A DNA stretch of 64,000 bases from Ramazzottius varieornatus (lineage: Eukaryota > Animalia > Tardigrada), in contig BDGG01000012.1 in NCBI GenBank assembly GCA_001949185.1, forward strand, positions 550,973 through 614,972, read 5' to 3'. The translations under genes were made by a program, and so were the position numbers. How positions within the stretch are numbered: the stretch's first letter is position 1; each line of letters opens with the position of its first letter. The notes beneath the pieces were generated by a model. That model saw nothing but the letters and a program-made list of their open reading frames with translations, searched no databases and had not been told where the DNA came from. This document shows positions 4,358 through 61,475 of this stretch, piece by piece.

Positions 4358-7300
4358 ATGGCAAGCAGGAAAGCTCCGCCGATGTTCGAGGCCAAACCTG
4401 GTGTCGCTTCGGAGTTCTTCGCGGCCGTCGAAAAAGCCCGCGACACTCGGATACGTGTTTCGATCATCAACGAGTTCTGCACAGCCTTGTTCAAACTGCC
4501 CCCTAATGTCGCGAAAGCAGAACTAGGAGACAACCGCATGTCCCCCATGGTCTTCAATCTCTTCGTCGCGTCGAGCAAATTTCACCAAACCGTCAACGAC
4601 ATCATCGGCCATGTAGTCGATACCTTCATTACTCTCGGACCAGATTGGCTTCGGAACTGCTTGGTCAGGTCTTTCGGGGAATTCTTCAACGGAGAGAGCT
4701 CACGGACGAGTGGCGGATTGAAGCTGTGTGAACGCATTTTGGACCGGAAGCAGCTCAAAGACTTACTGCTCAGTGACCGCAACTTCTCCACCATATACTC
4801 ATTCATTTCTAGCTTTCTTCCTAGCGCCATATCGAAAGATGGACTACCGTCTGCGGAAGCTGAGCTTACGTTTATGGCGAATGCTGCAGCTGCATTGAGA
4901 CTCGTCCAGAAGGTTTTAGAGGCTACTTCCGGTCCAGTCAACCGGAAGTGCCTCATGGATAGCTGCGATCGACTGAGGCAGTTTCTTCTTAGCGGCGGAG
5001 AAAAATATCCTGATCTCTACATTTCGTCCGTCGGTCTGCACGCGAAGATAAGGGAGACATTGGGACAAGAAGGTCCGACCTCAGTCCACCTGTTGAGTAT
5101 GACTGACAAAATACTCACTCAAGAAGCTCCGGTACAAAACTGTGAGAAGCTGGTTGAAGAGATACAGAACTTCAAGCTGGCTTACCCAGCTGTTACGAAC
5201 TCGCTGATGATTGCATTGTGTGAAAAGCTCACGTCAGGTTTAGCTCAAGGAAGTCACAGTCAGCAAGAGTTGGAAGAGTTCCTCACCTCATTCACAAAGT
5301 TGTGGCTGTCAGAAATGGACGACGTCCTCCAGAAAGAAAACATCTCACACCAAGAGGCAGTACTTGCCGTCAGTGTCCGTGTCTTGTCGATAATTGTAAA
5401 TAATTGGGATATTCTCACCGATGAAGACAGAGAGAGGATTCGCGTATGCGTGATGGAACTTCCAGAGGACTTTCTTTACTCGACGTACGGACAAAAAACC
5501 TGGATTTCACTTCTTCCTGTCATCGTACCCATCGAAGCCAAGAGTCTTTGGAAGACACAAGAGATTCTGGACAGATTACCGAAAAGCTACTTCGGAGTGC
5601 AGATAGTTCAGTTACTGACGTTGACGGCGACTGCGCAAGACATCGCTCGAATAGTTCAGCACTGTCCTGCCCATAGACCATTCTTGACCAAGAGCGTTCT
5701 ACCGGTGCTGATCAAACGACCCGGGCTCTTGTTTGAAGTGCTCAGGGTGTTGGGTGGAGAAGAACACTTTGAAGGATATGGGCCGCTGCTGCATGCCTTG
5801 AGGTCGACCAAAGTGGAAAACCAGGAAGCAATGCGGAGAGAAGTCTTTCAAAAGTACATCAGGGGAAACGCGGGAGTGCTGGCTGTCTTGATGGATGATG
5901 TGACGCGCTTGGAGATTTTCATCTGCTTTTGTGACGCTGCGGATCCGGTGAGCGACTTTGCAGGTATTGTGCGTTTAAGCTTACAGAATTAACCTAAGGT
6001 GTTGGTTTATGGTTATTGTTTGAGGTTTCAGAGTTCGTGGTGTTGGTCGAAAGCAACCTGGACCAGCAGTTCCTGAAATTCCGCGAGCCCTTCATGCGGG
6101 CACTGGGAAGGTTCTTCAGTCGTCTCAGCGCCAAGCTATCGTCCAAGTCGAAGTCAAAGCCTCGACCGAAAAAGGCGGCGGCAGTCGCACCTGAAGAATC
6201 TGTAGCGAAAGCTGCGGACACCGTCGCGAAGGTCCTGGAGCTTTTCCACCTGTTGATCCATCAATGCAATCCGAGTTCGTCTTACGCCAGGTAACATGAT
6301 AACCACCATATCGTTTCAAGGGATATGGAAGGCCGGCAAAGATCCGCGGGATGGTTTCTATCTCAAGTGGCGCACGGTTCCAGCCAACAACGCAGAAAAC
6401 TGCGTCATTTGAGATGACGATCGTCCCGAGATTGTTTACCGGGCTCCCATCTACGTTTCAAGTGAATTTTGGGACTTCATATTCTTTTGTGCTAGACGGA
6501 CGCTGTCTCTCCAGATCATTCAGGTCCTTCTCTCCGGACCGCTACTCACCGTTGACGCCTCAGGTCTCCAGTGGGACAGTACAGCAGTCACTCTCACTCA
6601 GCAGATATTCTGGGAAACCTTCCCGGATAACTTGACGCTGATCGTGGACATTTTCTCCATTCGGCCAGATCTTCAGACGGATCAGGTTGTGGGAGGGATG
6701 GAAATGTCCCAGCTGGCAAGCATGGCCAACAATAAAGCACGCAGCTGCGTCACGAACGACCCAAAAGTGGCGGTCAGCCTTGACATCCTACTCGACAAGC
6801 TGAAGTACACCAATGAGCAACGTCCCAACAGCAGAATGTTGGAAGCCATAGAACAACTTCGTGCAGACATATCCAACGCCAAGGTGAACAAAGTAAAAAG
6901 GGGCAAACTTTGGCGAATATTCAGATATGAATTTTTTGGGTTTTTCCAGACTTTTGGTATGCTGAGGGCGGCCCGGAATGCGCCGCTGTATGGACAGCTC
7001 TTTCGGTTACGAAGTTTGTTGACAGCAGTCGGAGTAGGGGACGAGCATGGCCAGTCTACGATAGACGCCATCATACAGGCCTGTTGGCAAACTGCCAATC
7101 TGGTGGAGAAAGCTTTGAAGGAGAACGATGCGCAGTTGAGTATGGACAAGAGTCATGTCTTGCTCGAAGAAACGGATTCGGAAGGGTTTGTAGTGTTTCG
7201 TGTCACCGCTCAGCAGCTGTTCGTGTGCTGCTGGCACTGTATGCGGGAGGTGGCCATGCTTTTTGGCGAAATTTGCTGTGGAAAAGCGACAGGTATAAAA

Positions 7301-10300
7301 AGCACGTAAGACATGAAAATTGATAGTGAGTGGCTTTCTATCCACAGTCCTGGACTACCTGTGAGATGTGGCAATTTGCTTCTTCTGCAACCGAACAGCG
7401 TTTCTGCACGAGATTGCTGGCCATGCACTGCGCAGCACGATCAGCTGATCGACGTCCGGTTGTCTTTTGACTTGCTCAAGTAATCAAGCGCGTGTCTGAT
7501 CAGCTGATCGGTCTCATGCGAATAGCATGGCGTGCACACATGAACCGTCCGGAACTGATTCCGGGCGTTTGAACTGTCACATCTCACAGGTAGGACTGTA
7601 CCTGCGTACACCAAACCTTGAGTTTATCATCGTGGTTAACATGCGGGTGAGTGAAAGATGGCTCGTTTTGTTAGCTGATATAAGCTGCAAATTGTCAAAA
7701 AATTTTGTAACAACTTCTTGCTTCTTGGTTAGCTCTTGTCTTTGATGGTACTAATTTCGTAGGGAAGTTCCTGAAAGACGCTGAGAAGGTTTGGATATTC
7801 GACTGGATGGTTTTCCAGTTGTCGGTTACTCGCCACACCGGGGCCTTCGAAGGTCTAGCGGAACAGATCGCTAGAATAGCCCAAATGTTCGACGAAGAGA
7901 AGTCCCTGAAAGGTATGGCCTTCGTCAATAAAACGTTGGACTGGGTGCTAAAGGAGCTTCGAGCGTGGAGTTCGCCGCTGTGCCCAGAGAACTCCCGGAA
8001 GAGCGCGGGGGTGCCACGACTACTGGCCATATTGTTCGTGGCACTCAGCAGAACGGACACTGGCCTCGAAGCTTTTGAACAGACAATGGTGGACTTGATG
8101 GATGTCGCCAGTGGTGATGTCAAACGGAACACAGACGACAGAGTCAGGGCGCTTGATATCCTGGAAGCACTCTTCCGAGAAAACGCCCTCAATGAGGTAA
8201 CATACCGTAAAGTATCAAATTATACAGAAAACAAAACCGAATGTTCTGTTCCTAGACCAACTGTTCATTCGTCCCCGGAATTTTGTGATGGAAAGTTTTC
8301 TAATAGTTGGGAGATGGTCTTGACGACATCGTTTTTTTCAAGTGGCGCATGCTTCCAGTAGATAACACAGGAAGCGTGCACCACTTGGGAAGCCGTCAAG
8401 GTCGTTCTTCCAAGTGGCGCACGGGTCCAGCTAATAACGCGGAATTGAGCGTCGCTTGGGGAAAAAACATTGTCGAGTTTGCTTTCCGAGCTCCCAGATA
8501 ATAATCGGGTTGAAACCAAAGTAGTGCATGACAGGAGGTTGATTTTCCTAGGTTGATTTGTGGTTTGACCTGTAGGCTGCGGAATGTTTCATCGGAGATG
8601 GCTTCATCGTGGCTTGTGACAGCGTTGCGTCCTCTGTATGGTCCGTACGCAACTCGGCGGCTGGGCTCTTCACGGCGCTGATGCAGAGGGTTTTCGGTCC
8701 ATCGGTGAGGCGACCGCCGGAAGAGCTAGAATGGAGAGAAGCCGCCTTACCTGCCCATAGATTCTTCGGCAAGTATACGGGACTGTTCGACTATATCAAA
8801 ACCTGCCTACAGAGAACGGTGGAACAAAAGGACAAGCACGTTCCTAATGACCGACAGACTTCCTCAGCGTACTGTGCTCTGCTGCTTCTACAGAGACTGT
8901 ATCCGCTGGTAGGGGATCCGCTCTACCTGACGGGGGTGACTGAAGTGCTGGAAGGGTGTCTTGCTCATCGGGACCTGCGATTACGCCAAGCAGCGGCCAA
9001 AGCCACCGTTTTGTTCCTCTCAGAAAGCGAACTGCACAATATTATAAAGAAGATCAAACCTCCCTTCCGGTAATTTTCTAGCTGGACTTGTTTATTTAGG
9101 GGGAATCTTGTAAGATGTAACTGCTTCGTTTAAGTTAGTCATTTATTTCTAGATTTTCGGGAGGCCGGTAAACGGAATGTGCAAGATCGCTGTTCCAAGT
9201 GGCACACGCTTCCAGCTAACAACGCTGTCAACGTGCGCCACTTCGGAGCTCGACAAGATCGCTTTTTCAAGTGGAGCACACCTCCAGCTAATGATAATGA
9301 GAATGTGCGCCACCTAAGATGACGATCTTGCACGTTTCGTTCGCCAACCTTCCATCTGTTTTGCCTTCAATCTACTGCTTCCGCTTTATTCATATTTCTT
9401 ATCGTATTTTGTATGTTTTTACAGCTCACTTCAGGAGGCACTGCTTGTCGCACTTGAGCTTGACCGTGTGGCACATTTCCTCTTCCAGTTCCGAAATACC
9501 CAGCACGCCTTCTACAGTAAACTGCTGGTGTACTTCGTTGACGGCTACATGGATTCTTCGTACTCTACCAAAGACCTGGCTCTTCGGATCTTCCTCAAGT
9601 TCGACCGGTGGACGGACCTTCAAGTCGAGGTGACGAACCAGAAGAAGCTGCAGGGAGCTATGGCTGACTTCTCAGAAGACGCACACGGTTGGGATCCTGG
9701 GTATACTACGTGGGCCTCAAACTACGCTGCGGCGTTGATCAAGATTTGCCAGCGCGCCATGCAGACCAAGTCGGTGGTAGGCTTGGATCAAACGGTGGGC
9801 ATGGTTGTACAGAAAATAATGTCAAAGTCCACCAGTAGCGATCTGGCAGTCCGACTTTTGAATTCACTCGATTCGAATGCCGTTTATTCCGCTGGTTTCA
9901 TCCTGCAGAATGAAGCTTTCAGAAGTTATCTTCTGGATTTATCTCCCAAACAGTCGAGTGCTTTGTTAGCAGCCAAGATAACATTACTGACTAGTGCACT
10001 GGAGTTTCATACTGGGGAGTGGCAGATGAAGAGCACTGCACGAGATACCTTCTGGCTGAACATAGTGTCGCTTCTGACTACGCTTTTAGAGTCGGAGCTG
10101 CTATGTGTCGGTCTACGGTGCCTGTCCAGGATTCGTTTGATGTTCAGAAAGCCTGAAGATGATGATCGAACAGCCCAGTTCGTGGAAGTGATTGAACGAG
10201 TGATGGAGGAAGTACCGACTTTGGAAGTGCGGATGACTTGCGCCGATGTTGTTCCTTGTCCACGAATCGAAGAGTAAGACTCGATTAAGTTTTGAATTTT

Positions 10301-12059: not shown

Positions 12060-13038
12060 ATGTCAGCTGGGAGTCAGCTAAACTGTTTTCAGGCTGCGAC
12101 ATGCGGAGTAAATACCGACTCCAACGATGACCTGGCAAACATGGAGGACCTGAAATCTACGGATGGAAGACCCGCGCTTACAGCAAACGATTACCTCACA
12201 GATGAAGAATTTGCCCTTCCTGTCATCTGCGCAAAGCTGAATTTGGATGCCGGGTTACTGCCAAAGATCTTTCCTATCCAGCTTACGGAGCGCCAGAAGC
12301 ACATCCTGGCCGTCACTTTTGCGTCACTGCGGCAAAACATTGCGGAAATCGGAGTGGTTGTCTTTATGAGGTACTGACCGGAAGTGATTGACTAATGGCT
12401 TCGTCTTTCACCCTTGCGACTACCGTAATCAGGATGCCACCCTATTTTTCCTATTCGCAGAGTCTTCGAAGCTTATCCTTACGCCCAGCAGATCTTTGAC
12501 TTGCTGAAGAATATCAGTCAAGACAACCTCGTTCACAGTCAAGCGCTTAAGTCACACGCCTTCCGTGTCGTCGGGTTCGTCGAGAAATGCATAGCTCGTC
12601 TTCATCGACCTGACAAACTGGATGCTATCTTGACCAATCTCGGCCAGAAACACCGCCAATGGAAAGTTCCACCAGGATACATTGACGTAAGAGACCATGA
12701 TACAGGAGCTCGGCAAGCAAACCAGGCAGAATTGTTTTACCCCATGGCGCACCGTTACAGCCTAAAAACTGAAGGAATGCGCCACTGGGAAAACGATCTT
12801 GTAGAGTTTTATTGTCGAAGTCTCGTATCTTGAAAATTCGAACGTGTGATAGCTAAAAGGTTGAGTTTCCGTTGTCCTCCAGTTATTAGGTCTCCAGTTC
12901 GTGGCTGCGATGAAGTCCTGTCTGGATCAGCAGTGGAACGCGGAAACGGAAGAAGCATGGATAGCGATGTTTGGTTTCATCACTTATCATATGAAAGAAG
13001 CCATGAAGATGGATGAGCAATCACCGCTTCCGCTCTAG
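12060..13038 (+). CDS. Globin X-like / neuroglobin-like globin (3 exons: ~12060-12370, 12461-12686, 12883-13038; start uncertain)
   Basis: Spliced product ...IGVVVFMRVFEAYPYAQQIF...LKSHAFRVVGFVEKCIARL...LGQKHRQW...YIDLLGLQFV...WNAETEEAWIAMFGFITYHMKEAM has distal and proximal His. Introns fall at the canonical B12.2 and G7.0 positions. Confidence 0.9.
12727..12801. repeat. 77-bp palindrome family copy (globin intron 2)
   Basis: cccatggcgcac-24nt-atgcgccactgg gaaaacgatcttg. Confidence 0.8.
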
Positions 13039-13596: not shown

Positions 13597-16500
13597 TTAG
13601 TGATGGAAGAGTCGAACTCCGGTATGCGCTAGAACCATACCGTGCTCATTCGCAGCTTCCACGACGGCCTCGTCGTGGGTCGATCCCCCGGGACTGGCGA
13701 TGAACTTAACTCCACTCTGAAACACAAAGGGGGTCAAATGAGTTTTAAGGCGTAGACCCACCTGAAAGTGCTATTTTCCAGAACACGCGTTTAAATGATA
13801 GCCGATCTCTTCTGGCCACTTTCCTTGAAAGGCAATGTACCTGGTACTTGCGCGGAACAACATGTAATCTTTTGAGAAGATGCCGAAAGTTTTTTGTTAC
13901 TCTCACTTTATGCGGCCGATGCCGGAAATGCAGTAAATTCGGAAAATGCAGTAATTTGGAAATGCAATAATTTTGGAAATTCGGGATTGATGTTTCTTTA
14001 GCGCCTCGACCAATAGCACCTAGAAGGGACTACAAGAGTGAAAGCTAATTTCTATCAAAGATGGAAACGCGTTGGAGAAAACAGAAAAGTTTTCAAAAAA
14101 CCGGCTGGTCATCCGGTGGCGAGAACCTTAATTTACCGCGTTTCAGTTGCGCACTGTAGCTTTCTAGGAATCAAAACATTTTTCTCGAGTCTTGAAAGCT
14201 GTCCGACTGGACTTCCTCCAGACTAGTTATCGGTCCGTGATAGTCTAGATGAGGCCCCCCAGATTCTCTGCACACCAAGGTCGTGGAGCACTCCAAAAGC
14301 CTTCTCCATTTACTTCAAAAATGTTTTTCAACGAATGGAATTCCAGCCTAGGCGCGAATTTTTCAGTATTGCCCATAGGTTACTCTAACTTTAGGCAAAA
14401 AGTTGCAAAGATCAAATGACCACAAAATTTCTGGCGAACGCAGCAAGAGGTCCAAATTCGTTCGCGGGGGCGCGCAAAATTGACGTCCAAATGACGTAAC
14501 CCCAGATATCCGGTTGAGGGTACGGTTTTTTCGACCTCACATATGATGCAACCCGCGAACGTTTTGAACCTATAAACGCAGCTTTAATTAAAACTTATTG
14601 AACCCCCTTATCCTCTATGCTATCGGAAAGACTATCAGAGAGACTAATCTCTGCTTCTATGTATCATTCGAACGAGATAGATCGATGTAAATGAACGGCA
14701 TCAAGAAACCAAGAAAGGCGACTTACTGCGAATGCGCGGTCGACACTATCGCGGAAGGGAAAGAACGCGTCGGAACTCAGAGCAACGTTGTCCAGTTTGG
14801 CGATCCATTGAGCTCGTTCCTCCTGTGACATGAGAGACTGGGTTAATTAGAAAGTAGTTGGAGGCTAGTCCTAGGTATCCGTGCGTACCTGAGTGAGAGG
14901 TTTGGGGACTTCTTCGAAGTAGGACTCGAACTGTTGAGTGGGCATATCTTGTCCGACCACGTCCAGGATGAAAGCGTCAATAGCATTGGCAACCTCAGCC
15001 CGCTTGACGCCCTTCTTGAACTTGAACCCAAGGATGGCTGGGTGGAGCCTTAACCACCAGCTTTCGGCTTTGGCCGCGGCGATGCGAACGCAATGGATAC
15101 GAGACTGTTGTCCAGCACCGATACCCACCACTTGACCATCTTTGGCCAAGCAGACCGAGTTGGACTGGGTGTACTTCACGGCGACGGTCGCCACCATTAT
15201 GTCCCGAAGACCCTCCTCGGTAAACTACAGAGATAACCCGTATGCGTGAAGGACTTACCGCCGATGAACGATGTTCAGACAATACTCACCTGTTTATTCT
15301 TTGAAACCAAATTGTCGAACATTTTCTTCGAGATGACGGCATCATTGCGCTTCTGCTGCAAGTTTACTCCGAAGATGGTCTTGGTTTCTATTTCGACTGG
15401 CTCGTAGTTGGGATCTATCTGCAGAGTAGAAAGAACTTAGTTGAAACTGTAATAATACAGTAGTATGAGCGCGTCTGCAAATCAGGCTCGAACTTTGAAC
15501 ATCGCAGTTCTATGAAGTGGCGGACGCTTTCAGTTAACATCGTAGCAAAAGTGCGCCACTTGAGACAACAGTCACGATGAAGCTATTTACCGACGTCCCT
15601 ATGATTCTCGAGACTCGAGTCTTTTCCTGTCACAGTTCAGCGAAGACAAATATCGATTACCTTGAGCATGCAATAGGAACCGCTCTTCTTTTTCTTCAGA
15701 AGGGCTTCAGCCTCTTTAGAGTAGCCTGGTGCGATGATGCCGTCTGAGACCTCGCGAGAGATGATGTGGGCGGTGATTTCGTCGCAAGGGTCGGACAAGG
15801 CTATGAAGTCTCCGAAGGATGACATTCGATCTGCTCCTCGAGCTCGCGCATAGGCCGTAGCTAATGGGGATAGTTGGCTGGCCAAGTCCGACACCTGGCA
15901 CAGTTCCGCTTGTTGGGCGCTGAGTGGAATACCGACCGCAGCTCCAGCTGGGCTGACATGCTTGAACGAGGTTGCGGCGGGAAGACCCAAAGCAGCCTTG
16001 AGTTCGCGCACCAACTGCCAACCGTTGAGAGCGTCGCATAGGTTGATGAAACCCGGACTGCCGTTGACGACTAGGAGAATCAATTCATCATGAAGTTCGA
16101 AAATGACCGTCAAGTGGAGGCTAGACAAATAGAACGTACAAGATCGTCATCCCAAGTGCCGCACTTCTTCATCGTTATTGGACGGAGTTGTGAGTCATTG
16201 AACATAACGATCTTGGACGTTCGCCCAGCTCTCAAGTTGTTTTAAACTATCAATTCACCAATGGGCCGCCGAAGCCGAAACTCGGCAAGAAATGATTAAT
16301 CATTGGTAGTACCTGAGAAGGGTAGCGGTCCATGGGGATGGTAGACCTCGGCGGGAGCCTGATGAGGATTGATGCCGTATCGCAGCGCCATCTGCGAAGA
16401 CCCGGCACTATAGCGCTGCCGGAAGTGCACGGCAATAGCCGCATCGTATTCTGCCGTCTGTGAAAATGCCTACAAAAAGACACCGAAACTCAATCGTCAT

Positions 16501-17835
16501 TATGGTTTTCCGAAATTTTTCCCATTCCCCTACTTGATATGTTGTGCTACTATAAATTTATCTTATCGTTCTGAAGCCTGGATCCCCGGATCGGTTACGA
16601 ACCTTTAACGCAAGCCGTTGTCGAGTCTGCTCCGATATGAGATTAGATGAGTTGTTCCGGAGTTCTTCCAGGACACTACCAAAAACAGCATTCACCGAGT
16701 CGCTAGCACACAAGGCAACCTGTCATAGCTCTCCGTTTCCTGAAATACGGTAGTACGTGCTAACCTTTGGTAATCAGTTGGATCGGAGAGGACTATGACC
16801 CGGGAATGGTTCTTCGCAGCGGCTCGGAGTAGGGTAACGCCACCGATATCGATGTTTTCGATAATTTCCGCCTCGTGTTTTGTATTCTTCACCGTCTCGA
16901 CGAACGGATACAAGTTGCAAACCACGACTGAGATCTTGTTGATTCCACGCTCATCGAGGTCCTTCATATCCTTGTCCGTATCGCGCGCAAGAATGCCGGC
17001 ATGGATCTACAATGATAACAGTTGAAGTCAAACGTTTGGTCCACCCAGCCTGACTTCTCTTCTAGAACGGTTTCTGACCAGAACTTACTATAGGATGAAG
17101 CGTCTTGACTCGTCCATCCAGCATCTCATAGGCTCCGGTGATTTCCGAGACATCAGTAACAGCCACAGCCTCATTCCTCAAGGTCTTCGCCGTGCCTCCC
17201 GATGCAATGACATGAAAACCAGCATCCACCAGACCTTTAGCCAAATTCAGAAGCCCAGTTTTGTCGTAAACGCTGATCAAGGCAAGGGACTCTGTAGATG
17301 AAGGAATACGTAGTACATTATACGGGAGGTCGGCAAACGAAGCATACGAGATCTCATTTCGAGTGGCGCACGATTTTATTATTTTTGATCAGGAGCGTGC
17401 GCCACTTATGACTTAAAAGACCAAGGGTGATGCCCCGGTTGCCTGGCGCACCCCAAAAGCCTTGCGGAATGGTTACTGTTGAACCTTTTCGTCTCAAATT
17501 TTCACGTTTGCTTTCGGAAACTTTGTCGCTTCCAGTTGAAAAAGATGTGAACTGGCTAGCAGCTTTCTGAAAATTTCGAGAGACTGTTTCGTTTTTGACC
17601 AGATTGTGTCTTGGGTCGACAGACCAATTTTTTACTCGAGAGCTGGCTGACGGAAAGCCTCATTAAAAATTGGACACAGCCAGTTAAAAATTGAGGAAGG
17701 TGATCTACCCCCCTTGTACTCCCAGAGCTCGGAATTGCGTGGTCTTTCAAGTGTTAAGGTGGTATTCTTGTACGTTTCGTTTGCTGGCATTACAGTGTCA
17801 GTGACGAATAAAACCGGCTTACCTTTGCTCTTCAT
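13597..17835 (-). CDS. ATIC: Bifunctional purine biosynthesis protein ATIC/PurH (AICAR transformylase/IMP cyclohydrolase), ~10 exons; possible upstream in-frame start at 18000
   Basis: Exons give [66 protein letters not shown] and [10 protein letters not shown]. The terminal exon 13597-13716 is [12 protein letters not shown]...HTGVRLFHH*. Confidence 0.96.
13729..14607. mobile_element. Probable TIR insertion expanding the last ATIC intron
   Basis: GGGGGTCAAATGAGTTTTAA at the left versus TTAAAACTTATTGAACCCCC at the right. Internal ~18-bp tandem GGAAATGCAGTAATT at 13924-13981. The intron is about 1 kb against about 60 bp typical. Confidence 0.5.
15500..15575. repeat. 77-bp palindrome family copy (ATIC intron)
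   Basis: gaagtggcggac-25nt-gtgcgccacttg. Confidence 0.8.
16139..16215. repeat. 77-bp palindrome family copy (ATIC intron)
   Basis: caagatcgtc atcc caagtgccgcac-25nt-gtgagtcattga acat aacgatcttg. Confidence 0.82.
17347..17408. repeat. 77-bp palindrome family copy (ATIC intron 1)
   Basis: cgagtggcgcac-25nt-gtgcgccactta. Confidence 0.8.
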
Positions 17836-18288
17836 CTTGCGGGTTCCACTGTGCAGGTTCTTCCACGGTGTGTATGATACAGGTGTGGTGTAGAAAGGGC
17901 AAATAGAATTTGAGCCGAAGGCACTGTAAGTAGAAGATCGTCGAATATTAACCGGAGAAAAGTTCAGAAGAAAGCTTGATCGAGCTTGTAGATAATGCAT
18001 GGTCAAAGTTCTCCGATTAAAACTCAGACTATGCTGAAGGTAAGACGTCGACAAGACTTTCAATGTAATCAGGTTGAAGAGGTACCTCCTCGAAGAGCAG
18101 CTTTGTCTCCATTGTCGTGGACACTATAAAAGTTGGCGATTGTTGTCAAAACTCGAAAGCAGCGGGGAAACAATCCTCTATAGTCTGATAAACATTTCGA
18201 GGTTATGTACAGTCTTTCCAGGCTCCAGCTTATTGACGATTACATTATGACTGGGAGGCCGGCAGACGAAACGTACAAGCCGTTATCT

Positions 18289-18350
18289 GTAATCGCGCAC
18301 TTTTTCATTGTAGTTGGCCGAAACCGTGCGCCACTTAAGATCACGGTAGA
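18289..18350. repeat. 77-bp palindrome family copy (between ATIC and AKH)
   Basis: gtaatcgcgcac-25nt(ttggccg)-gtgcgccactta. Confidence 0.7.
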
Positions 18351-18834
18351 TATTCTCTTCTGGCCAGTCAGATTGACCAGTGGGCAGAGTCATTTCGCCG
18401 AAGGTCTCTTGCTACCTTATTCTCGGTTGTTAATTTTCCTGAAACGAACATGCGTACGGCCAACGTTACCGGAGTTGCTGCGCTGAAGCAAGCGGCGCAA
18501 TGACGTGCGACGACAAGGACAACGGACGCGGCAGGTGTCGCACCTTCTTACTGCCAGATGAATCAACATCACGTAAGTTTCTCGTGTGAAAACAGATCAG
18601 GAAGATGGTTTGCGAGTCCTACCACAAGACGGTGGGGCCAACACGCGGAGTTGCAGAAATTATATACCTGCCTGCGTAAACCTTAAGGAACCTTCCCTTT
18701 TGTACACGAGGACCACTTGAGCATGGTGACGCGATGATGGCCAGGTGGTTCTTATTAGCCGGAAGTTAAGAGCTAAATCGGCTAATCACGCTAGGAGGTG
18801 CGCTCGTCGTTCGGCACAAGCGATCGAGTTTGAC

Positions 18835-25049: not shown

Positions 25050-26420
25050 TCAGCACTTCGTACGCTTTTTCCTGACTGTGCGGACCCTCCTTGATTTTAT
25101 TTTTCTGGGCGCCCTGCGTGTGACCGCTCTGGAAGGTTTGGGTGCCTTGGGAGGTGCCATAGAGAAATTCCTTTCAAAGATGTCGCCAGCTTCCGCCTGT
25201 GAGCGGGATGGACTGACGGAACAGGTTCTCCCAAAGGACACAGGAGACCGAGAGGGCGAATCGTTCAGGTAGATCGTCGAACTGTCGGAACGGAATACAA
25301 GTGCTGGCGAGACACCCAGTCGTGAGCTCGAGGGGTAAGGAGTGAAAGAACAGGATGCTAACGAGCAACTGCACGAGGGAGGGCAACAGGGATCTGTACA
25401 TGTATCGCACTCCAAGGTACCCGATAAACTGTAGAAGGAACCCGATGGTCCCAAATCGGTCTCACTGGCTTGTACCCTCTTTATTTTGGCCTGAACTCCT
25501 ACGAAGACGACCAGTACAAACCCAGACTGCATTCGTAAGATAGATGATGTGAATTGGATTACTCTTAATTACGTGTCTGATGTCATCGCGGTAACCGCGC
25601 GATGACGTAAAACGCACGAAATCAAGGGCGAAGTGGCGTTCAAATAGCGCACGTTTTTACCGTATTTGGCAGTAGTGTGCGCCACTTGGAAAAACGGTCT
25701 CGTTGACGACCCAATTCGTTCTACGAACCAACTCACTCTCTCACTCACAAAGAAACAAGGTCAGTTCTACCTATTGAAGTACATCATACCCTGGCGTTCG
25801 AGCTCTGCCGTTGAGCAATTGTTCCCAGTGGACGCGGGTCTCGCACAAGGTTTTCCACAAGTACAAGCATCACAGTCGATCTTTCTAGGCCGCCCTCTCT
25901 TCTTTCGAATGATTAATATATGCTCGATTTTCTTCTGGACATCCTGCCGAAAGGCATTTGGATTTCCCTGAATGGAAGAAAAAAAATATGCTTCGGTTAG
26001 AAGAGGCAGACGGAAGTTGAACTTCCTCGTGCATAAAGAAAAAACAAAATGTACCAGCTCGTACTCTTTGCTGCGTTTGGAATTATCGCGAATTTCACAG
26101 TCCAGTAAGATTTCATTCTTCTTCTCGCTGCAAAGTTCAACGATCAAACAAGCCCCGAAGTGCATACAGAAAACGTAGGGCTAATGAGGGTTGAGGGTAG
26201 ATTCAGTCACCTGTTACCTTGACAAGGGTTCCGTCCTCCGCACGGGAACAGGTGTACGAGGTGGGCAGAAGTTAGCTGGTGTCGTTCGAGGGTTAACAGG
26301 TGTACGATACGGAGATTTGGATCGACAAGGAACTGGAGATACTCGGCTTCGACGGCGCATCGGAGGCGGGACAGCTGGAAAAAGTGGTATAGGTATACAT
26401 TGGCATTCGAAGAACGACAT
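25050..26420 (-). CDS. Orphan Pro/Ser/Cys-rich basic protein with an AT-hook-like motif (4 coding exons)
   Basis: ORF segments join in frame through GT-AG introns (approx. exons 26219-26420, 26055-26127, 25789-25967, 25050-25498). Contains KKRGRPRK, Cys clusters and an Arg/Lys-rich C-terminus. Confidence 0.6.
25641..25702. repeat. 77-bp palindrome family copy (AT-hook gene intron)
   Basis: caaatagcgcac-24nt-gtgcgccacttg gaaa aacggtctcg. Confidence 0.78.
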
Positions 26421-26684
26421 GACGATAATATGAATGCTTTAGTACGGAATGTCTGGAGTGTCACAGAAGAAGGCGTATATCTTACGTGGAAAAAAGAAGG
26501 CCCATGCCTGTCCCAGAAAGTTCATATCCGCACCATCTCATCCGGCGATAGAGTATCCACGAGAACACGCACAGAATATCGACCACATTCCGGGTTCGGA
26601 TGCCAAAGGTGACTCTTACGCCTAGCGAGGATCCCTATAGTAACAAGAAACGTTTAGAGCGCCGGCAAGTGAATTGACCTGATC

Positions 26685-26760
26685 CATGATTGTTAACTTG
26701 AGTGGCGCACCTTTCCTCTGATATTGACTGAAAGTGTACGCCACTTGGGAAAACGATCTC
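26685..26760. repeat. 77-bp palindrome family copy (likely 5'UTR intron of the AT-hook gene)
   Basis: tgagtggcgcac-25nt-gtacgccacttg ggaa aacgatctc. Confidence 0.82.
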
Positions 26761-45508: not shown

Positions 45509-48500
45509 ATGGACACCTTCACCACGCCGAACTCGGTCCGTGGGATCTCGGTGCCCTTCTATGATATGCAGAGTGTGCTGTGGAATAATATTAGCAGCAC
45601 CCCGTCCAGCGCCTACGGGCGGGGCCAATTACCGCAGGAAATGCAGTTCACCAGTGTGAATGTCATCGTGATTGTTATCTATTCTAATTTGGTTTGGATC
45701 TCCCTTCTGGGCAACATTACCGTCTTCAGCACTTTGATCAGAATGAAGAAAAAGACTCGAGTGCACATCCTTCTGCTTAACTTGTGCACTGCGGATATCA
45801 TGGTCACAGTTGTCGAGATGCCTCTAAAGGTAGGCGATTGGTCAGCGCTAGCCACCATCCAGAATGAACCCGATGACCTTTTTGCTCACTTCAGTTTGAG
45901 GTTCTCAGTCGCGGCTCGCAAGAAAAAGTACCATTTACGACTTTGTGTGAGACAGTGACAGCGAAGAACATGACTACTGGATGTCGGCAAAGGGTCTGAA
46001 CAAGATCGTTTGCCCAAGTGGCAGCTAATAACATTCCCAATGTACGCGCCACTTCGAATGACGGTCGTGTTCAATTCATTTGCCGACGGCCCAATTGTTT
46101 CGTCGTAACGCCACAGCGGTGTCAAGTCCCAGTTTCTCAGAAGCATTACTATTTCTGGAAAACACGCTCTGGCCTAACATATTCGTGCGCATGGGGGAAG
46201 TAACCGACAGGGGAAGCCGAGGCTGCAAGGGGGCTCTTTTAAGCCGGAAATTGTTCGAAATTCGAACTACAGTACATTAGTTTTGCGTAGGCCGCCAGCT
46301 GTGTTTGCCTACGATGGGATGATCCCGTAATTGGCCTGTCTGATCCTACCATACATCGGTCTGATTAGCAGGCTTTTTGTCTATCACAGTATCTGGTTCC
46401 AGCCTCCAGGCGTAGGAATTCAAATTACCCTACTTGTGGGCTTGGTGTTTTTCTCTTGGTGGTTCAAGTAAAGCTGTTACGTTGGTTTGTTTGGCAGTAA
46501 AAGGATAGAGATCCTGCCAACAAAGGACACATGCATTTCTGACTCATTGCGGACTGTAAAGAGAAATATTGAATTAAATTCGATCATACATGTTATAAAG
46601 AACGCCTGACAGGCAGCTGGGCTAATTGCTCGTGAGAACCCCATTGAACCTTTTCAAAACTCTCATGCTCGACTATGTTCCGTTTTTTTTCTCAGTATGA
46701 GCTACTTCAATAGGCGCTCGTACAAAATACAACGTTGAACATATCAAGCTGGTCGTCGGTTTTTTAAGAGGGCAATTTTATTTTTGATCTAAAGTTCCGA
46801 TACGTACGTCCTGCGCCAAACGTGAATTTCTCAGAGGTTACCTGGGTTTGTCACGGAAGGGAGATGGAGTCGAGGACAAGGAGTATTACTCTTATGATAA
46901 ACGGTTGCTAAATTGACAATCTCTCCTCTCTACATTGCTCATTTTCGTTATTCTTCAATGTCAGTCAGCATGCTCCGCATGAATTCCGATAAGTAATATT
47001 GGGAAAAGCTGTGCTCTATTCCGAGAACCTTTTGGGAAAACTTGAGAAATTCTCTGCTTGCAATTGGTCGTGAACTTGTTTTTGCTGTTACAGATTGCGT
47101 GGAAATGGACGGTGCAATGGACAGCCGGAAACTGGACATGCAAGCTGTTTTCCTGTTTACGGGTCTTCGGGCTGTACCTCAGTGCCCTCTTGCTCATTGC
47201 CATGAGTGTCGATCGGTTCTTGGCCATCTGGGACCCAATGTCTTCCGTCCAGAAAGCCGGCCAGCGAACTCGCATCATGATCCTACTCGCATGGCTCCTC
47301 GCCATTGCCTGTGCGGCTCCTCAGGTGGGTCCCCAGTCCTGTCTGGTCCGTTTCTGCATTTCCGATATAGTTCACGAGGGTCCACGAAAGTCAACAACGT
47401 CAGCGTTATATGTTTGTTCTAGGCTCTCATATTCCACGTTCTGCAACATCCAGAATACAACTGGTACCATCAGGTATGTGTATGTATGTCAGTTCTTCTA
47501 GACTTCGTTCAAGCGGATCGGATCGTCTGACTGAGTAAGACGATCGATAGTCTCACCTTGTCGGAATGTTTTAGTGCGTGACGTTTGGATCATTTGCGTC
47601 AAGGAACTCCGAAATGGCTTACGGCATAGGAGTAATGCTTCTGACGTATGGATTACCTTTGCTGACGATCCTGATGTGCTACCTGGGAATATGGCTACGG
47701 GTAGTCGCCAGTACCATTCAACACAGTTCGTACCGCTGTCCACCAATTTCGTTGGTTCTCTTATGAGCGCTACAGTGGCGCCACAGATTCACGATGGTCT
47801 TCTGTTTCTAGGGCGGTCTCCCACCGACACATACGTGACGGACTCTTTTAGGAATGGCACGGAAAGTCTACGAAGATCCATGGTTTCTTTGAGGACCAGC
47901 AATACTGACCGACTCATCAAAGCGAAACATCGCACGTTAAAGATGACTGGTAAGAACTTCCTTGTTGCATCTACACGTGGATCTTTGTGCGCGTGATTTG
48001 TTGTCCGGAATTCAACGTTCGTTGTTTTTCTTTGTAGTTTTTATTGTCGGGATATTCATCTTGTGTTGGTCGCCGTACCAGCTACTATCGATGTGGTACA
48101 TTTTTGACAGGTAATTGTCTAATGAGTACTGTAATGCTACATAAACTTCGCGAAGTGACGTCCCAGTACGCGTAGAGTTTACGGTTAAGATGACGATACA
48201 GCACACGCTTAATGTGACGTCAGTTCGCGAAGTTCGTGAAGCCTTACAGTATGTTTATCATCACCAATCAACACGTGGGAACTGGGCAAGAACATTCAAG
48301 GTCGTTATGTCGAGTGGCGCACCTTTCGAGCCAATAGCAATGAAAACGTGCGTCACTTGAGGTAAGAGTCTTGAACCTGCTGTTTGCCCAGCTCTCACTT
48401 CGCATAATTGTGTACCATACTGTATACCTAACTCATGGGTATTTTATGCAGGAACTCTGCGGCTCAACTGGATCATCTGGTCCAAGAGATCCTGTTTATT

Positions 48501-50518: not shown

Positions 50519-53449
50519 TCAGTAGCGTCGAAAAGGAGGACTCGGTATGCTCCAGTCGGAGCTTGACGAAAGCGACCTGGTGCGGTCGCCCTTCCACGAC
50601 TCTGAATCCTTTGCGCTGCTCAGCTCTTCCCACAGTTGTTCCCCCGGCTCATTCTCCACAATATCCGTGCCGCATTTCATTTGCTGTTCCTCGAAGCTCT
50701 TGAGGATCACCTCTCTTGCAGGCCCACAATGGCCTTCGACCCCATCCTTCTTCCCTCCTCCATCCTCAGGTATCTTCTCGGCACCAGCTTTCGTCTTGTC
50801 GATGGCTTCTCGTAATTTCGCATTACTGTCTTTCATGGCACTGAACCTCGGTTCCAAAACCTTATTCAAAGCCTGTTGCTGACTGACCTGGTCTTGTAAC
50901 AACTTCAACTTGGCTTCCTGCTTCAGTAACACATTCCAGACATTCTCGTCTATCTTTCGAATCTCTTTCTGTTGCATGAAACCAATGATAATCTGCTGGA
51001 AGATGTTCTGCCTTCGACTGACATGGAAGCGTATTTCATCGTGTGCGTCTGCGACGAGCCTAATCTGTTTAGTGCCGGTGTTCTTCATGGCTTCTAGAGT
51101 TTCTTCCAGCAAGTCCAACCGTTTCGTTGGATCGCGTCTGAGCTTCATCATTTCGGGACTCTGGTACGCGAGGTACTTGAAAGCTTCTCTTACGTCCATT
51201 TCATATTCTGGTTGAGGGTGATCGTCTTCAAAGACGTACAGACTGACCTCCTCTGTGAGGTAGGTGAGGTCTTCGTGAACCATGGCCAAGTCGGCTTGCT
51301 TCTTGACCGCTTCGCGCTTTGCTCGGTCGAAGTTGCGCATGGCTTCGTTGAAGATACGAACTGCGGTGTGAAAGTCGCGGTCGACCAGGTGCTCTTCTTG
51401 GCGAACTGCTTCGAGGTTCTCGTTGATGTGCAGGTGAGTCAGTTGGCTTTCGCGCAGCAAGGCGGCTCGTTGGTCGCACAGAGCGTTGAGAGCTTCGGAC
51501 ACCATAGTTATGTGACTGGGAACCTCCTCTTCGCCCTCATCCTGCCCCTTCTTCTTTTCTCTACAACGAACGTCGTTGTTCATCGTAACAAGCTTTATAG
51601 AAAAAGAAGAGTATCGAGAAGGCGAAATGGCGCGTTCGCAAACAAATTCGACAAGGTCGTTCTTCCAAGTGGCGCACACTTCCAGTAAATAACACTGAGA
51701 ACGTGCGCCACCCGCAAAAGCAATTGTCGGCGTTGTTATTCAAGTGGCGCACTGGTCTGGTACAATTGGCTGACAGCGTGCGTCACTTATTAATCTGGTC
51801 GAGCCTGTTCGCATAGTCTCGAATACCTTTTCGGGCGAAGTTTCACAAGCTGTTTGTATCGATTCTCGGCTTCGGCTGCCTTGAGGTCGTAGTCTCTGAT
51901 CTGAAAGTACCCATCCTGCATTTTCCGCTTCAGATCGTCCAGTACATCTTCCACCTTGTCGTTCTCTTCGTCCAGGGACTTTAACTCGACGCGGTAGCCC
52001 TCGGTCTGCTTGGCCATGTACTGCAGCATCTCGTCGCCCGCTTCCAAGTCCCACAACCTCAAGAACTCGTCATCGAAGTTATCAATGTCAACATATTCCA
52101 GCTTGAGGTTGTCCCATATCGCCACGTTCTTGGCATGCAAGACTTCGCTGGTCTCATCTTGTCTCTCTATCCTAGCGTGGTCAGTCCGCGTGGTCTTCAG
52201 GTCGCGGTAGTTGATGAGCATAGGGTCGACACCGAGAAGGGACAGGAAATCAGTGACGCCAGCCTCGTCATCGTCGTCTTCGTCGCTGGAAGACTCTTCG
52301 GGCTCTGGTTCGGCTTTCGGCTGTTGAAGAGGAACCACAGGGACCGGTGTGGATTCATGTTCAGGCTCAAGGTCTTGCCCCGTTTCGTCGACAGGCGTCG
52401 GTTCAGGTACGGAATCGGGTTCGCTACGTGATGAAGGGACTGGAAGGGCAGGTATCACGAACTTGCTCTATAGCCACAGTCAAAACTGATTTGGAGTTTT
52501 TCTTCCACTGATGGGAAAAGTTTGAATAATCTCAGTTCTTAGAAGGGTCGATAGTCCGTTTAAGAAGAAATATTCGCGAAGGTACGAAATGGAATACTGT
52601 TGTTTGCAACATTACTGTCTAGCTTGACCAACCTGTTTGCTTTGTCGACCGAAAAAGGTAGATACTCGTTGGGAAAAGCTTCGTTTCGGTTGGGAAGGTG
52701 GCATTGATACTGTTGGCTTGGGTGCCGGGGGACTTGGTACTTGAATGACAGGAACATTTGCGATCGGAGAGATCTTCGCCACCAGCTCATTCGCTTTCTT
52801 CTCCGCATCTGCAACCGCTTTTTTCGGGTCTGTCGAAGTCCTGCTTTCTCCACCTCCGCCTATGAAAACCAACAAAAACAAAATCGTGTTTCACATCTAA
52901 TACGTTGATCTCTGCCTCTTCTTCAGTGGCATAACGCTATCGAACAGACCTTGTGGTGGTGGTACTATTGAAAGAGACGCGGCGGGAGTGGTAGGCGGAA
53001 GTATTGGTCCAACAGCTGGCTGCGCCTCTGGAAAATCCGAGTTCCAGGGTTAGCAGGACACTACAACAGAGGTCGTAGGGACCAAGGCCGATAAGTCAGA
53101 ACATCATCAAGGTGTAGCAATAACAAACCTGGCAAACTGCCCCTTGCCAAGCTTATCTCTTCGCTCCTTCTTCTCAGCCGATCAACCTTCGATTGCCGTC
53201 GGAACCGCTTGCCACTTCCTTCTTCTTGCTCTGCAGGATAAAGACCTCTCAAGTTGGGTTTACAATAGCACATTTCGCTGAGATCATACCAGAATAGGGT
53301 GGTACGGGTTTGGTTTGCATGGTTCCACTAGGGCTTGTAATGGCCAGCTGTCCATATCGCACAGCTTTGTCGTCTGCCACTGAACTTCCGAGTGCAGATT
53401 TTCTTCCCGTCCCGGACACTTTCCGGCTGGGCCGCTGTTTTGGCGCCAT
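50519..53449 (-). CDS. Orphan multi-exon protein with a Pro-rich/acidic N-terminus and a long coiled-coil C-terminus
   Basis: ORFs 53249-53449, 53061-53273, 52612-52881, 51790-52458 and 50519-51679 join in frame through GT-AG introns, for example PK-AG|gtattc...ttgtag|A-GAA giving PKREKKKG. Confidence 0.65.
51652..51789. repeat. 77-bp palindrome family doublet (coiled-coil gene intron)
   Basis: Cores start at 51666 and 51741, with spacers in opposite orientation. Confidence 0.85.
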
Positions 53450-59000: not shown

Positions 59001-61475
59001 CTTTCCCGCAAGAATGAAGATGAGATCCAAGAAAGATAAGGTAATGACGGTGGAGAGCGTCAGCAAGCCGGTGGAAGACGATACTGCAGTCAGCAAGGAG
59101 GAGGAAGCCAGCAGAGCCTTCCCGCCACCGCCCATGGTCCGCTCCAACTCGGTGAAGCCGGTTCCGAAGCGGGTTGAACTAAAAGGTACTTTCATAGTCT
59201 CTTTTCTAACTTTGCGAGGGGATGCTGAGTACATGTATCTCGGCTTAATTTGCAGATCTGCCGAAGAACATCAAGAGACTGTTGAGGAACCGAGCATACC
59301 TCATCAAGCTCTGCGCTCAACTACTCGGTTCTTTCGTTCTGGCCGGTAAGTCGCGAACTTGTATATACCTCACCTGATTTTCAAACTTGGTTAGATTGTA
59401 TACTGACGGCAAGGCTTGATGTTTCAGGTTACATGTCGTTTGCTCAGAAGTTTCTGAAGGAACAGTACCAACTACCGCAGTCTGTTACGAATACGGCTGG
59501 AGGTAAGGATGAACATGTTCACGTCTTTCTTCCTCTACTTAAATCCCTCGTTGCTTCTAGGGATACCGCCCATCTTTCTGGGTTTTCTCGGCATCTTGCT
59601 GGGAAGTTTTCTAATTCGCCGATTCAAGTTCAGTCCAAAACAAGTTTGCTACATGATGGCGGCTTCCTCTCTGATTGGATCAATCTGCTACTTCAGCGTC
59701 ATCGGTATGGGCTGCGAAAAGGAAGACGTCCTCGGCATCGACGATGTCGCGAACCCATACAACACGTAGTTTATTTCGTTCCTCATCTTGAGACGTAGCT
59801 CCTTCTACTATACTTCGTGAAAGCGATTAAGGGAAATGTTTGACGGTATGTGTAGAACCGGAGACCAAACGTGCCACGTCCAGCGAGACTGCAACTGCGT
59901 CGACTTTTCCTTCGCACCCATATGCAACACTGTTACCAAGAAGAGTTACCTGTCCGCTTGCTACGCTGGCTGTAAAACTGCTAGACGAAATCCTCACGTA
60001 AGTACTGTATTACCTCTAAGGTTTCGCGCAGTCACGTGACAAGCCAGTAGATATTGCGTGGCGGGGATAAAAAACTTCGCTGCCATCAATAAAAAATTCT
60101 TGCCCAATCAAGCCCAGCAATGTGGCACAATCAAGCAATCAGTGACATGAGGCCCCGGGTGTAATCCACTGATCTGTCACGTGACTGCGCGAAACGTTAG
60201 AGGTAATACAGTAACCTGCTTGATTATTGGATCGTGCGATACACCAGTCTGACTTATCTTGACTTCGTTTCTCATTATTTGAATACAGGCGAGGGAGAAA
60301 GAGTATATGGGCTGTTCTTGTGCATGGAACGGATTCTCCAGGAACTCCAGCCATTTTATGGCAAACCACACAAACTTGGCCCACAGTCATCTGAACGATA
60401 CTCGTCCACCAAGAGTAGTATCAGGCTTGTGTAAGAAGGACTGTCTGGGCTCCTTCATCAAGTACGTCGTGGCCATCTCCATAGCCAAGTTCTGTATGGG
60501 CTTTCCGCTCTCCGGCATTCTGATGCTGCAGTTCAGGTACGGCTACATCCATACTCAATTCAGTTTTCATACCTAAAACAGATCTTTAGCTTTTTTATGT
60601 TACCAGGATTGTCGATGTCGACCTGAAGAGCTTGGCCAATGCCGTCACCACCGTTGTTACATCGACGCTCGGTTTGCTACCGGCACCGATACTTGTGGGC
60701 AAGCTGATCGACTCTACATGCCGGCTTTGGGCGCAGAACCCTTGTGGCACTCAGGGTGCTTGCTGGCTGTATAACGCCGACAACTTCCGGTGGAAGTACG
60801 ACCGTCTTAGCTCTCGTTTCTTTGGACGGAAGTCACATTGGTTTTCGTTTTACGCAGATTGCACGCCTCCGTTGGAGTTGTCCGGATTGTCACGATGATC
60901 CTGGAATTACTTGTAAGCATCGATTTCGTGTTTGCAGTGGCTCTGATCAAAATTTATTTCCTGATTCAATCTGTGGCTTCTTTTCCAGCTGGCCTATCAA
61001 GTCCGCAATATCACCTTCGACCGAGAAGGTGACGCTAAAAGAGCGGCTGGCGGGCCTCCCCAAAGCGAAAGTTCCGCCAGCGTGTCGGTCGCCACGTCTA
61101 GTATCAGCCTTACAATGGCTGATAACTCGTCGGATTCGGGGATATCGGACGAACAGGAACAAGATCAGGAACAAGACCCAGCTACAGCCATACATGATGC
61201 GCACCAAAAGGTAGGCGTATGTGTATGGGCCGTCAGACGAATTGAGTCACCAAAGTCATTTCCGCAAGTGGCGCATAGTCCCAGCCAAAAAAATGAGACC
61301 GTGCACCACTCCAGACAACAATGTGGGTGGAATCATTCGCCGACGTCTCAAACTCCCAACTATGGGAAAAAAGTCCCAGAGAAACCGCCACCTATCGTGA
61401 AGTGAAGCTATCTCACAACTTTTGTTCGTGTTTCAGAGCATGCTGGTCTCACCATCTGGAGAGATGCCGACATAG
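56083..61475 (+). CDS. SLCO: Organic anion transporting polypeptide (OATP/SLCO), multi-exon, copy 1
   Basis: N-terminal CNILGWKPHWLQ, PSIEKRFGFTS, PFVDDNVKTKNSPLY, DPRWISAWYMGF, Kazal-like CQRDCNC...FAPICN...YLSACYAGC and GKLIDSTCRLW...CGTQGACWLY. Confidence 0.93.
60005..60211. mobile_element. 207-bp TA-flanked MITE with 37-bp TIRs in an SLCO intron
   Basis: TA|CTGTATTACCTCTAAGGTTTCGCGCAGTCACGTGACA...TGTCACGTGACTGCGCGAAACGTTAGAGGTAATACAG|TA, one mismatch between the TIRs. Confidence 0.88.
61251..61325. repeat. 77-bp palindrome family copy (last SLCO intron)
   Basis: caagtggcgcat-24nt(ccagccaa)-gtgcaccactcc. Confidence 0.8.

What the first reader, a model, noticed from the sequence alone, without database searches (positions are those of the whole stretch)
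6350..61325. The palindrome is almost confined to introns and marks most multi-exon genes
Seen: about 21 of 23 copies lie in introns between coding exons of TMF1, THADA (3 introns), globin, ATIC (3 introns), RASD, the AT-hook gene, DUF4807, BTB, the receptor (2 introns), the coiled-coil gene and SLCO. One more (26699) is probably in a 5'UTR intron. I found none in the long gene-poor stretches (19.3-21.7, 28-32.5, 42.2-45.3 and 53.5-56 kb). Host introns are typically about 200-500 bp against about 60 bp for typical introns. Inference: either insertion is coupled to transcription or splicing, or intronic copies are selectively kept, for example as a hairpin that shortens effective intron length, a mirtron or editing substrate, or a gene-body chromatin mark.
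Basis: partly seen in the sequence, partly recalled or inferred. Interest (0 to 1): 0.78.

Follow-up and report, generated by a model that had tools for sequence, protein, structure and literature searches.

The report
Old palindromic transposon in tardigrade introns
A roughly 125-base palindromic repeat sits almost only inside introns in this stretch of a tardigrade genome (16 of 18 sites), and it is likely the fossil of an old miniature DNA transposon, like the palindromic repeats known from nematode introns, rather than a new splicing signal.

Summary
The window is from the tardigrade Ramazzottius varieornatus. In detail: 18 loci carry 23 palindromic cores, and 16 loci (21 cores) lie in introns between coding exons, although such introns make up 38% of non-coding DNA (p=1e-5; p=6e-4 under a conservative null). 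Nine host introns are bridged by spliced contigs and two match annotated proteins. 'Marks most genes' is weak: 11 of 16 genes, about what random placement in introns gives, and only 16 of 91 introns. The element has ~49-nt inverted arms starting G(G/A)GAG and a decayed 4-bp ANNT flanking duplication (permutation P=0.016), so it is likely an old Sola-like MITE. It inserted into existing introns, including the ancestral globin G7.0 intron. Introner, mirtron and intron-shortening readings fail; no covariation or G-U excess supports an RNA hairpin function. The intron bias is most likely gene-body insertion and/or loss elsewhere, as for C. elegans palindromic transposons. One open lead: the inner 11-bp half-sites are better conserved than the arms (87-88% vs 71-77%), as in the co-opted CERP2/HIM-17 system. 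No genome-wide test was possible.

The parts
1304..1392 (.). Internally deleted copy in TMF1 intron 1223-1415
   Evidence: intron from reading-frame model
6327..6448 (.). Single-core copy in THADA intron 6291-6495; flanks ATAT / ATCT
   Evidence: intron modelled
8309..8495 (.). Double-core copy in THADA intron 8197-8575; flanks AGTT / AGAT
   Evidence: spliced contigs resume at 8574; donor modelled
9159..9353 (.). Double-core copy in THADA intron 9070-9424
   Evidence: intron bridged by contigs
12704..12824 (.). Copy in globin intron 12687-12882 (ancestral G7.0 position)
   Evidence: joint; position from alignment to cytoglobin, helix numbering recalled; G7.0 ancestral per PMC7457136
15476..15599 (.). 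Decayed copy in ATIC intron 15419-15660
   Evidence: no significant hairpin, z=0.12
16116..16233 (.). Copy in ATIC intron 16071-16312; perfect flanking repeat AAGT / AAGT
17324..17445 (.). Copy in ATIC intron 17292-17822
18253..18372 (.). Copy between the ATIC start and the AKH-like gene; possibly in a 5'UTR intron (strong donor at 18040), unverified
21905..22087 (.). Double-core copy in RASD intron 21807-22120; perfect flanking repeat ATTT / ATTT
   Evidence: intron splits the Ras G1 motif in the model
25600..25725 (.). Decayed copy in intron 25499-25789 of the AT-hook-like gene
   Evidence: open 301-aa model; last exon has one 74% relative, P0004; no annotated protein of 278 aa or more found
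26654..26782 (.). Copy upstream of the AT-hook-like gene; probable 5'UTR intron (minus-strand acceptor at 26635), unverified
38345..38466 (.). Copy in DUF4807 intron 38334-38523
40864..41077 (.). Double-core copy in BTB intron 40820-41140
45978..46092 (.). Copy with shortened loop in receptor (7tm_1) intron 45830-47093
48277..48396 (.). Copy in receptor intron 48111-48451; flanks ACGT / ACTT
51625..51823 (.). Double-core copy with cores in opposite orientation, in intron 51561-51826 of RvY_15581
61228..61349 (.). Copy in the last intron (61211-61436) of SLCO RvY_15583

Best explanation
The repeat is likely the decayed fossil of a palindromic miniature DNA transposon (a MITE, probably Sola-like) that inserted into existing introns, and its intron bias likely comes from insertion into gene bodies and loss of copies elsewhere rather than from a function. 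Shown: two ~49-nt inverted arms beginning G(G/A)GAG around a 24-25-nt loop, copies 51-78% identical to the consensus, and 16 of 18 loci in introns. Supported but statistically modest: a 4-bp ANNT target-site duplication. Inferred: a cut-and-paste transposase spread it long ago; insertions in exons, UTRs, promoters and the last ~27 nt of introns were purged; copies in short introns survived because deletions there hit splice sites, and/or the transposase favoured gene-body chromatin. These two causes cannot be separated here.
For: Flanks match best at k=4 (26 of 44 bases, against 0-34% for other k), consensus A (18 of 22) NN T (19 of 22); the inner two bases match 11 of 22, permutation P=0.016 for the 11 of 18 loci with both ends callable, and P=0.029 for all 18. 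AWWT/AWDT targets are a Sola1 hallmark (PMC3845634) and 4-bp AWWT TSDs occur in Sola2 (PMC3627910). Arm length is fixed (39 nt in 17 of 23 callable arms). Decay is mostly star-like, best pair 68% identical. The host globin intron is at the ancestral G7.0 position. No copy lies within 27 nt of an acceptor; 13 of 16 are in introns with residual length 200 nt or less, which hold 52% of intron bases (p=0.015). No covariation, no G-U excess (71 vs 56, p=0.21; 17 vs 12, p=0.46), both orientations occur (10 sense, 4 antisense of 14 oriented). C. elegans inverted repeats are also intron-enriched, 56.3% vs 34.7% (PMC6239182).
Against: The TSD signal rests on 11-18 decayed copies and is not significant in the strictest set (n=6, P=0.07). 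No autonomous partner or empty site was seen. Inner half-sites are better conserved than the outer blocks (88% vs 71%, p=6e-11; 87% vs 77%, p=0.003 in 19 of 35 indel-free arms), which plain neutral decay does not predict. The bias here (about 13-fold) is far stronger than in C. elegans. ANNT density is nearly equal in introns and other non-coding DNA (0.082 vs 0.076), so target sequence cannot explain it. Own arms pair better than arms of other copies. Only one 64-kb window was examined.
Confidence: 0.62

Rival explanations
1. MITE-derived but co-opted: the inverted 11-bp half-sites are kept by selection as binding sites for a dimeric DNA-binding protein that marks gene bodies, as m1m2 motif pairs in CERP2/CELE2 are bound by HIM-17.
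For: Half-sites 88-90% identical to consensus against 71% for the loop and 68-74% for outer blocks; G/C sites 86.5% vs 75% (p=0.01). Substitutions are uneven across half-site positions (chi-square p=0.017). Only 1 compensatory pair in 209, so any constraint is on sequence, not pairing. Window density extrapolates to about 15,700 loci, about one per gene (13,917 genes).
Against: The excess shrinks to 10 points in clean arms and vanishes against the best 11 outer columns (87% vs 86%). The half-site is the alignment anchor. Conserved transposase sites across several master copies would look the same. Loop spacing is no more constant than arm length. Only 16 of 91 introns are marked; AIF (15 introns) has none. 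CERP2 co-option is at promoters.
Confidence: 0.17
2. Intronic copies are kept as pre-mRNA hairpins that aid splicing or act as ADAR substrates or expression-promoting dsRNA.
For: 11 of 12 folded copies form hairpins with z between -2.0 and -7.0. Own-arm hairpins are more stable than chimeric ones (-44.7 vs -39.6 kcal/mol, p=0.04), and outer arms share private bases (60 of 237 vs 18.6% expected, p=0.006). Palindromic transposons are enriched in highly expressed C. elegans genes and edited regions.
Against: Any decayed palindrome folds, and subfamily structure explains the arm sharing. No covariation in the core (385 of 500 shuffles as high); RNAalifold finds no consensus structure on alignment A1, which includes 3 fragments. 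No sense-strand G-U excess. Long introns without copies are spliced. Host residual lengths exceed typical introns.
Confidence: 0.1
3. The bias is local to this window; genome-wide the family is about as dense between genes as in introns.
For: One window only; copies cluster (12 of 18 loci before 27 kb, none in 27-38 kb). AIF and SLCO hold 34 of 91 introns but 1 copy (P=0.003, post hoc), so density is heterogeneous.
Against: p=1.2e-5, and 6e-4 under a conservative null. The window's intron share of non-coding DNA (38%) is close to the genome's (12.38 Mb intron vs 23.89 Mb intergenic, PMC5531438).
Confidence: 0.07
4. The element creates introns (introner) or is processed as a mirtron.
For: Four copies start within 3-17 nt of the donor.
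Against: No copy supplies both splice sites; 59-1146 nt of non-element intron remain. The globin host intron is ancestral. No Rfam match in the window.
Confidence: 0.02

Closest known systems
C. elegans palindromic non-autonomous DNA transposons (PAL5A_CE, IR3_CE, CELE1, PALTTAA3_CE; PMC6239182: abstract, passages and section 13 read)
   Same: Short palindromic DNA-transposon derivatives in a compact ecdysozoan genome; inverted repeats enriched in introns (56.3% vs 34.7% of the genome); insertion preference versus function is debated there too.
   Different: Different phylum, and no sequence link was tested. The bias here is stronger (16 of 18 vs 38%). Editing is shown in C. elegans and untested here.
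Sola-type MITEs (Sola1_NA of Bombyx/Rhodnius, PMC3845634 passages; Sola2 elements, PMC3627910 passages)
   Same: Terminal inverted repeats starting GG and a 4-bp A..T target duplication.
   Different: Target here is ANNT rather than strict AWWT. The first 11 terminal bases do not match the published Sola1_NA TIR beyond GG. Almost the whole element is TIR. No transposase was found.
CERP2 / CELE2 MITEs bound by HIM-17 (PMC9757741, passages read)
   Same: MITE with a motif pair inside its inverted repeats; in CERP2 promoters the motifs are more conserved than their neighbours.
   Different: Co-option there is at germline promoters, with ChIP and mutant evidence. Here copies are intronic and no binding is shown.
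Introners and mirtrons (recalled, no paper read)
   Same: Repeated or hairpin sequence inside introns.
   Different: The element does not supply or abut the splice sites and sits in an ancestral intron.

Membership tests
MITE (non-autonomous TIR DNA transposon) | Short, non-coding, with terminal inverted repeats | tested here: met
   About 120-130 nt (190-215 for double-core copies), arms about 49 nt
MITE (non-autonomous TIR DNA transposon) | Target-site duplication | tested here: met
   4-bp ANNT, permutation P=0.016 (11 loci), 0.029 (18 loci), 0.07 (6 strictest); modest support
MITE (non-autonomous TIR DNA transposon) | High, dispersed copy number | tested here: met
   18 loci in 64 kb; loose ends of contigs show further copies from elsewhere. 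The genome-wide number is only an extrapolation.
MITE (non-autonomous TIR DNA transposon) | Size and sequence homogeneity | tested here: inconclusive
   Arm length is homogeneous, sequences are old and diverged (best pair 68%), 5 of 18 loci are double-core
MITE (non-autonomous TIR DNA transposon) | Autonomous partner or empty sites | not testable with these tools
   No genome held; no related tardigrade DNA found in metagenome contigs
Sola superfamily | 4-bp AT-rich TSD (AWWT/AWDT) | tested here: inconclusive
   Length 4 and outer A/T fit; inner positions are W in 28 of 44 bases of the 11-locus set
Sola superfamily | Terminal 11 nt match a known member with at most 1 mismatch (Repbase rule, PMC4455052) | tested here: inconclusive
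   No match to the one TIR seen (Sola1_NA); Repbase and Dfam not available; Sola2 'GRG' termini are recalled, the source paper is not held
Sola superfamily | Sola DDD transposase | not testable with these tools
   Element is non-coding; no genome to search
Introner | Element forms the whole intron and supplies splice sites at a new position | tested here: not met
Mirtron | Hairpin ends coincide with splice sites | tested here: not met
   3-377 nt from donor, 27-997 nt from acceptor
Conserved structured RNA | Covariation or sense-strand G-U excess | tested here: not met
   no Rfam match
Co-opted MITE motif pair (CERP2/HIM-17 type) | Motif pair more conserved than the rest of the element | tested here: inconclusive
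   88% vs 71%; 87% vs 77%, and 86% for the best outer columns
Co-opted MITE motif pair (CERP2/HIM-17 type) | Bound by a host factor, with an effect on expression | not testable with these tools
   Needs ChIP/ATAC or reporter assays

The most novel reading that the evidence does not exclude
A domesticated palindromic MITE forms a genome-wide set of about 15,000 paired protein-binding sites, about one per gene, kept in short introns by selection on its inner half-sites and read by a tardigrade DNA-binding protein as a gene-body chromatin mark.
Probability: 0.15. Interest if true: 0.72.

Novelty: new member of a known kind. Interest (0 to 1): 0.33.

Why it matters
If ordinary, it names one abundant family among the 65,730 unclassified repeat elements of this genome (S3 Table of PMC5531438) and explains why some of its short introns are two to three times longer. 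It also offers a clean case to separate insertion preference from exon-shielded retention in a compact animal genome. If the half-sites are under host selection, it would be a gene-body counterpart of the CERP2/HIM-17 system in an extremotolerant animal.

Tried and rejected
No whole genome is held, so no genome-wide density test. Two metagenome scans gave 0 hits and 1 hit; the hit L001 has no arms and is taken as chance. Rfam: no match. My first TSD test placed the terminus one base too far out and showed no clear length; it did show the flanking A that led to the corrected test. One search used a structure string one column off; one search is the valid run. Loop spacing as a special constraint was rejected: 21 of 23 cores have 35-36 spacing, but arms are about as length-stable. 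Per-base versus per-intron insertion models could not be told apart (log-likelihood -43.2 vs -42.3). The first gene-finder setting over-predicted introns (22 of 29 RNA introns recovered); the stricter one recovered 27 of 29 (partly circular, since it was trained on them) and I then corrected models by hand. Editing and small RNAs: only contigs were available and no listed holder is on record as RNA, so the lack of listed differences over copies is no evidence. Weak fragments at 32394-32419 (7.5 bits) and 17766-17790 (3.7 bits) are within the null range and were not counted. Literature: searches for tardigrade + palindromic + intron, Ramazzottius + inverted repeat + intron, tardigrade + MITE, Ramazzottius + DNA transposon, and term searches in both genome papers showed no description of this family. 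15 of 27 supplementary files of PMC5531438 were not searched, the gene table of PMC5034306 is cut, and Dfam/Repbase were not available, so it may already be catalogued there. Four look-ups of earlier findings returned nothing on this genome.
Full report
Setting. Two window proteins match Ramazzottius varieornatus RvY_15581 and RvY_15583 at 100%, so this is a tardigrade genome of 55.8 Mb with 12.38 Mb of introns and 23.89 Mb intergenic (PMC5531438, passages). No whole genome is held, so all statistics are for this one window.

The element. A search for the half-site AAGTGGCGCAC and its complement, followed by nhmmer, gives 18 loci and 23 cores. Each locus has an arm hit above 12 bits, while 20 shuffled windows reached at most 9.9. 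A single unit is two inverted arms of about 49 nt around a 24-25-nt loop. Arms start G(G/A)GAG and end in the 11-nt half-site; the distance between them is constant in 17 of 23 callable arms. Five loci carry two cores within one pair of termini, one with the cores in opposite orientation. Copies are 51-78% identical to the consensus; the best of 120 pairs is 68% identical and shared derived states show only weak structure. The family is old.

Is it intronic? I laid RNA-like contigs on 40 of the 64 kb. The tool only guesses that these runs are RNA, but the joints skip GT..AG stretches. One search showed 15 of its 34 joints. I took 29 introns from these calls. Nine loci lie in such introns. Two more lie in introns defined by the annotated proteins. 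Five rest on my gene models; of these the AT-hook-like gene is the least secure. The other two lie near candidate 5'UTR splice sites and are unverified. Introns between coding exons hold 38% of non-coding, non-element bases: p=1.2e-5, or 1e-4 without the AT-hook gene, and 6e-4 after removing RNA-covered UTRs, 200-bp promoters and two other inverted-repeat elements. Two details need correcting. Typical introns have median 82 nt. 'Marks most genes' (11 of 16) is what random placement among 91 introns gives (mean 9.1, P=0.14).

What it is. With termini called from the arm sequence alone, the flanks agree best over 4 bases: 26 of 44 in the 11 loci with both ends callable, consensus ANNT, with perfect AAGT/AAGT and ATTT/ATTT pairs. 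The inner two bases match more than in permuted pairs (P=0.016; 0.029 for all 18 loci; 0.07 for the 6 strictest). This is modest but direct evidence for cut-and-paste insertion. AWWT/AWDT targets are described as a Sola1 hallmark (PMC3845634, passages) and 4-bp AWWT duplications for Sola2 elements (PMC3627910, passages). I call it Sola-like only: the Repbase terminal rule (PMC4455052, passages) could not be applied, and no transposase was seen. The element entered existing introns. It never supplies splice sites, 59-1146 nt of other intron remain, and the globin host intron aligns to position G7.0 (helix numbering recalled), which is ancestral in globins (PMC7457136, passages).

Why introns? 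Target sequence does not explain it (ANNT 0.082 vs 0.076 per base). Purifying selection is visible: no copy in coding sequence and none within 27 nt of an acceptor. Copies favour short introns: 13 of 16 lie in introns of residual length up to 200 nt, which hold 52% of intron bases (p=0.015), although per-base and per-intron models fit about equally. Inference: either the transposase favoured exon-dense gene bodies, or copies between close exons were shielded from deletion while those in long introns and intergenic DNA were lost. Intergenic space here holds younger inverted-repeat elements (arms 85-90% complementary), one of which is skipped in contigs of a second strain. C. elegans shows the same kind of pattern more weakly, 56.3% of inverted-repeat sequence in introns that are 34.7% of the genome, and the authors leave insertion preference versus function open (PMC6239182, abstract, passages and section 13).

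RNA readings. Eleven of 12 folded copies form hairpins, as any palindrome would. Own arms pair somewhat better than foreign arms, which subfamilies or weak compensation could cause. The core shows no covariation, and G-U pairs are not in excess over A-C on the sense strand (71 vs 56; 17 vs 12). Both orientations occur (10 sense, 4 antisense of 14 oriented loci). A 1010-nt intron without a copy is spliced, and host introns minus the element are longer than typical (117 vs 82 nt, p=0.026), so shortening is not needed. Mirtron geometry is not met. Editing was not testable.

The open lead. The half-sites are 88% identical to consensus against 71% for the outer blocks and loop (p=6e-11), and left-right mismatch is 21.5% against 36.4%. 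In the 19 of 35 arms that are indel-free, a set chosen for good outer blocks, the gap is 87% vs 77% (p=0.003), and it vanishes against the best 11 outer columns (86%). Only 1 of 209 core pairs is compensatory, so any constraint is on sequence. That would fit a dimeric DNA-binding protein, as for the m1m2 pairs of CERP2 bound by HIM-17 (PMC9757741, passages). It equally fits conserved transposase sites across several master copies, plus anchoring bias. I give co-option about 0.15-0.17.

Verdict. The most likely reading is an old palindromic MITE with a strong but probably non-adaptive intron bias: a new member of a known kind, not found described in the searches listed, though Dfam and Repbase were not available. 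Interest 0.33.

Noticed in passing
window 18969-19276 (+) and 45509-48800 (+): An adipokinetic-hormone-like precursor gene (Pfam PF06377) lies about 26 kb from a rhodopsin-family receptor gene that looks AKH/GnRH-receptor-like (resemblance recalled, not tested).
   Followed up: partly
window 19395-20201: 807-bp element with 54-nt inverted arms; contigs of run X9 join 19394 to 20202, so it is probably absent in a second strain: a young polymorphic transposon.
   Followed up: partly
window 29789-31100: 1.3-kb element with about 210-nt inverted arms, 85-90% complementary; no Pfam match in three ORFs tested there.
   Followed up: partly
window 31310-31429, 48127-48251, 60003-60213: A second palindromic family with TACTGTA...TACAGTA ends; two copies are intronic and one is outside my gene models. 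The copy at 48127 lies 24 nt from a copy of the main family.
   Followed up: partly
window 13173-13315 and 13289-13550: The 3' ends of the globin (+) and ATIC (-) transcripts overlap in the contigs, and a strong palindrome (13289-13550) lies in the ATIC 3' region.
   Followed up: no
window 37877-37999: GC-AG intron in the DUF4807 gene, bridged by a contig.
   Followed up: yes
window 33679-36919 and 56083-61475: The AIF-like and SLCO genes hold 34 of 91 introns but only 1 copy of the element (P=0.003, post hoc); unexplained.
   Followed up: partly
   Followed up: no
window 32345-32430 and 17715-17800: Possible coreless fragments of the element, one intergenic and one in ATIC intron 1; scores are within the null range.
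   Followed up: partly
half-sites at 6400, 8447, 16190, 22039, 40945, 48348, 51778: The recurrent variant at half-site position 6 occurs 7 times, always in the right-hand half-site on the + strand and in both loop orientations; unexplained.
   Followed up: no
loop of most cores: The loop consensus contains a CCAAT-box-like stretch; the resemblance to an NF-Y site is recalled and untested.
   Followed up: no
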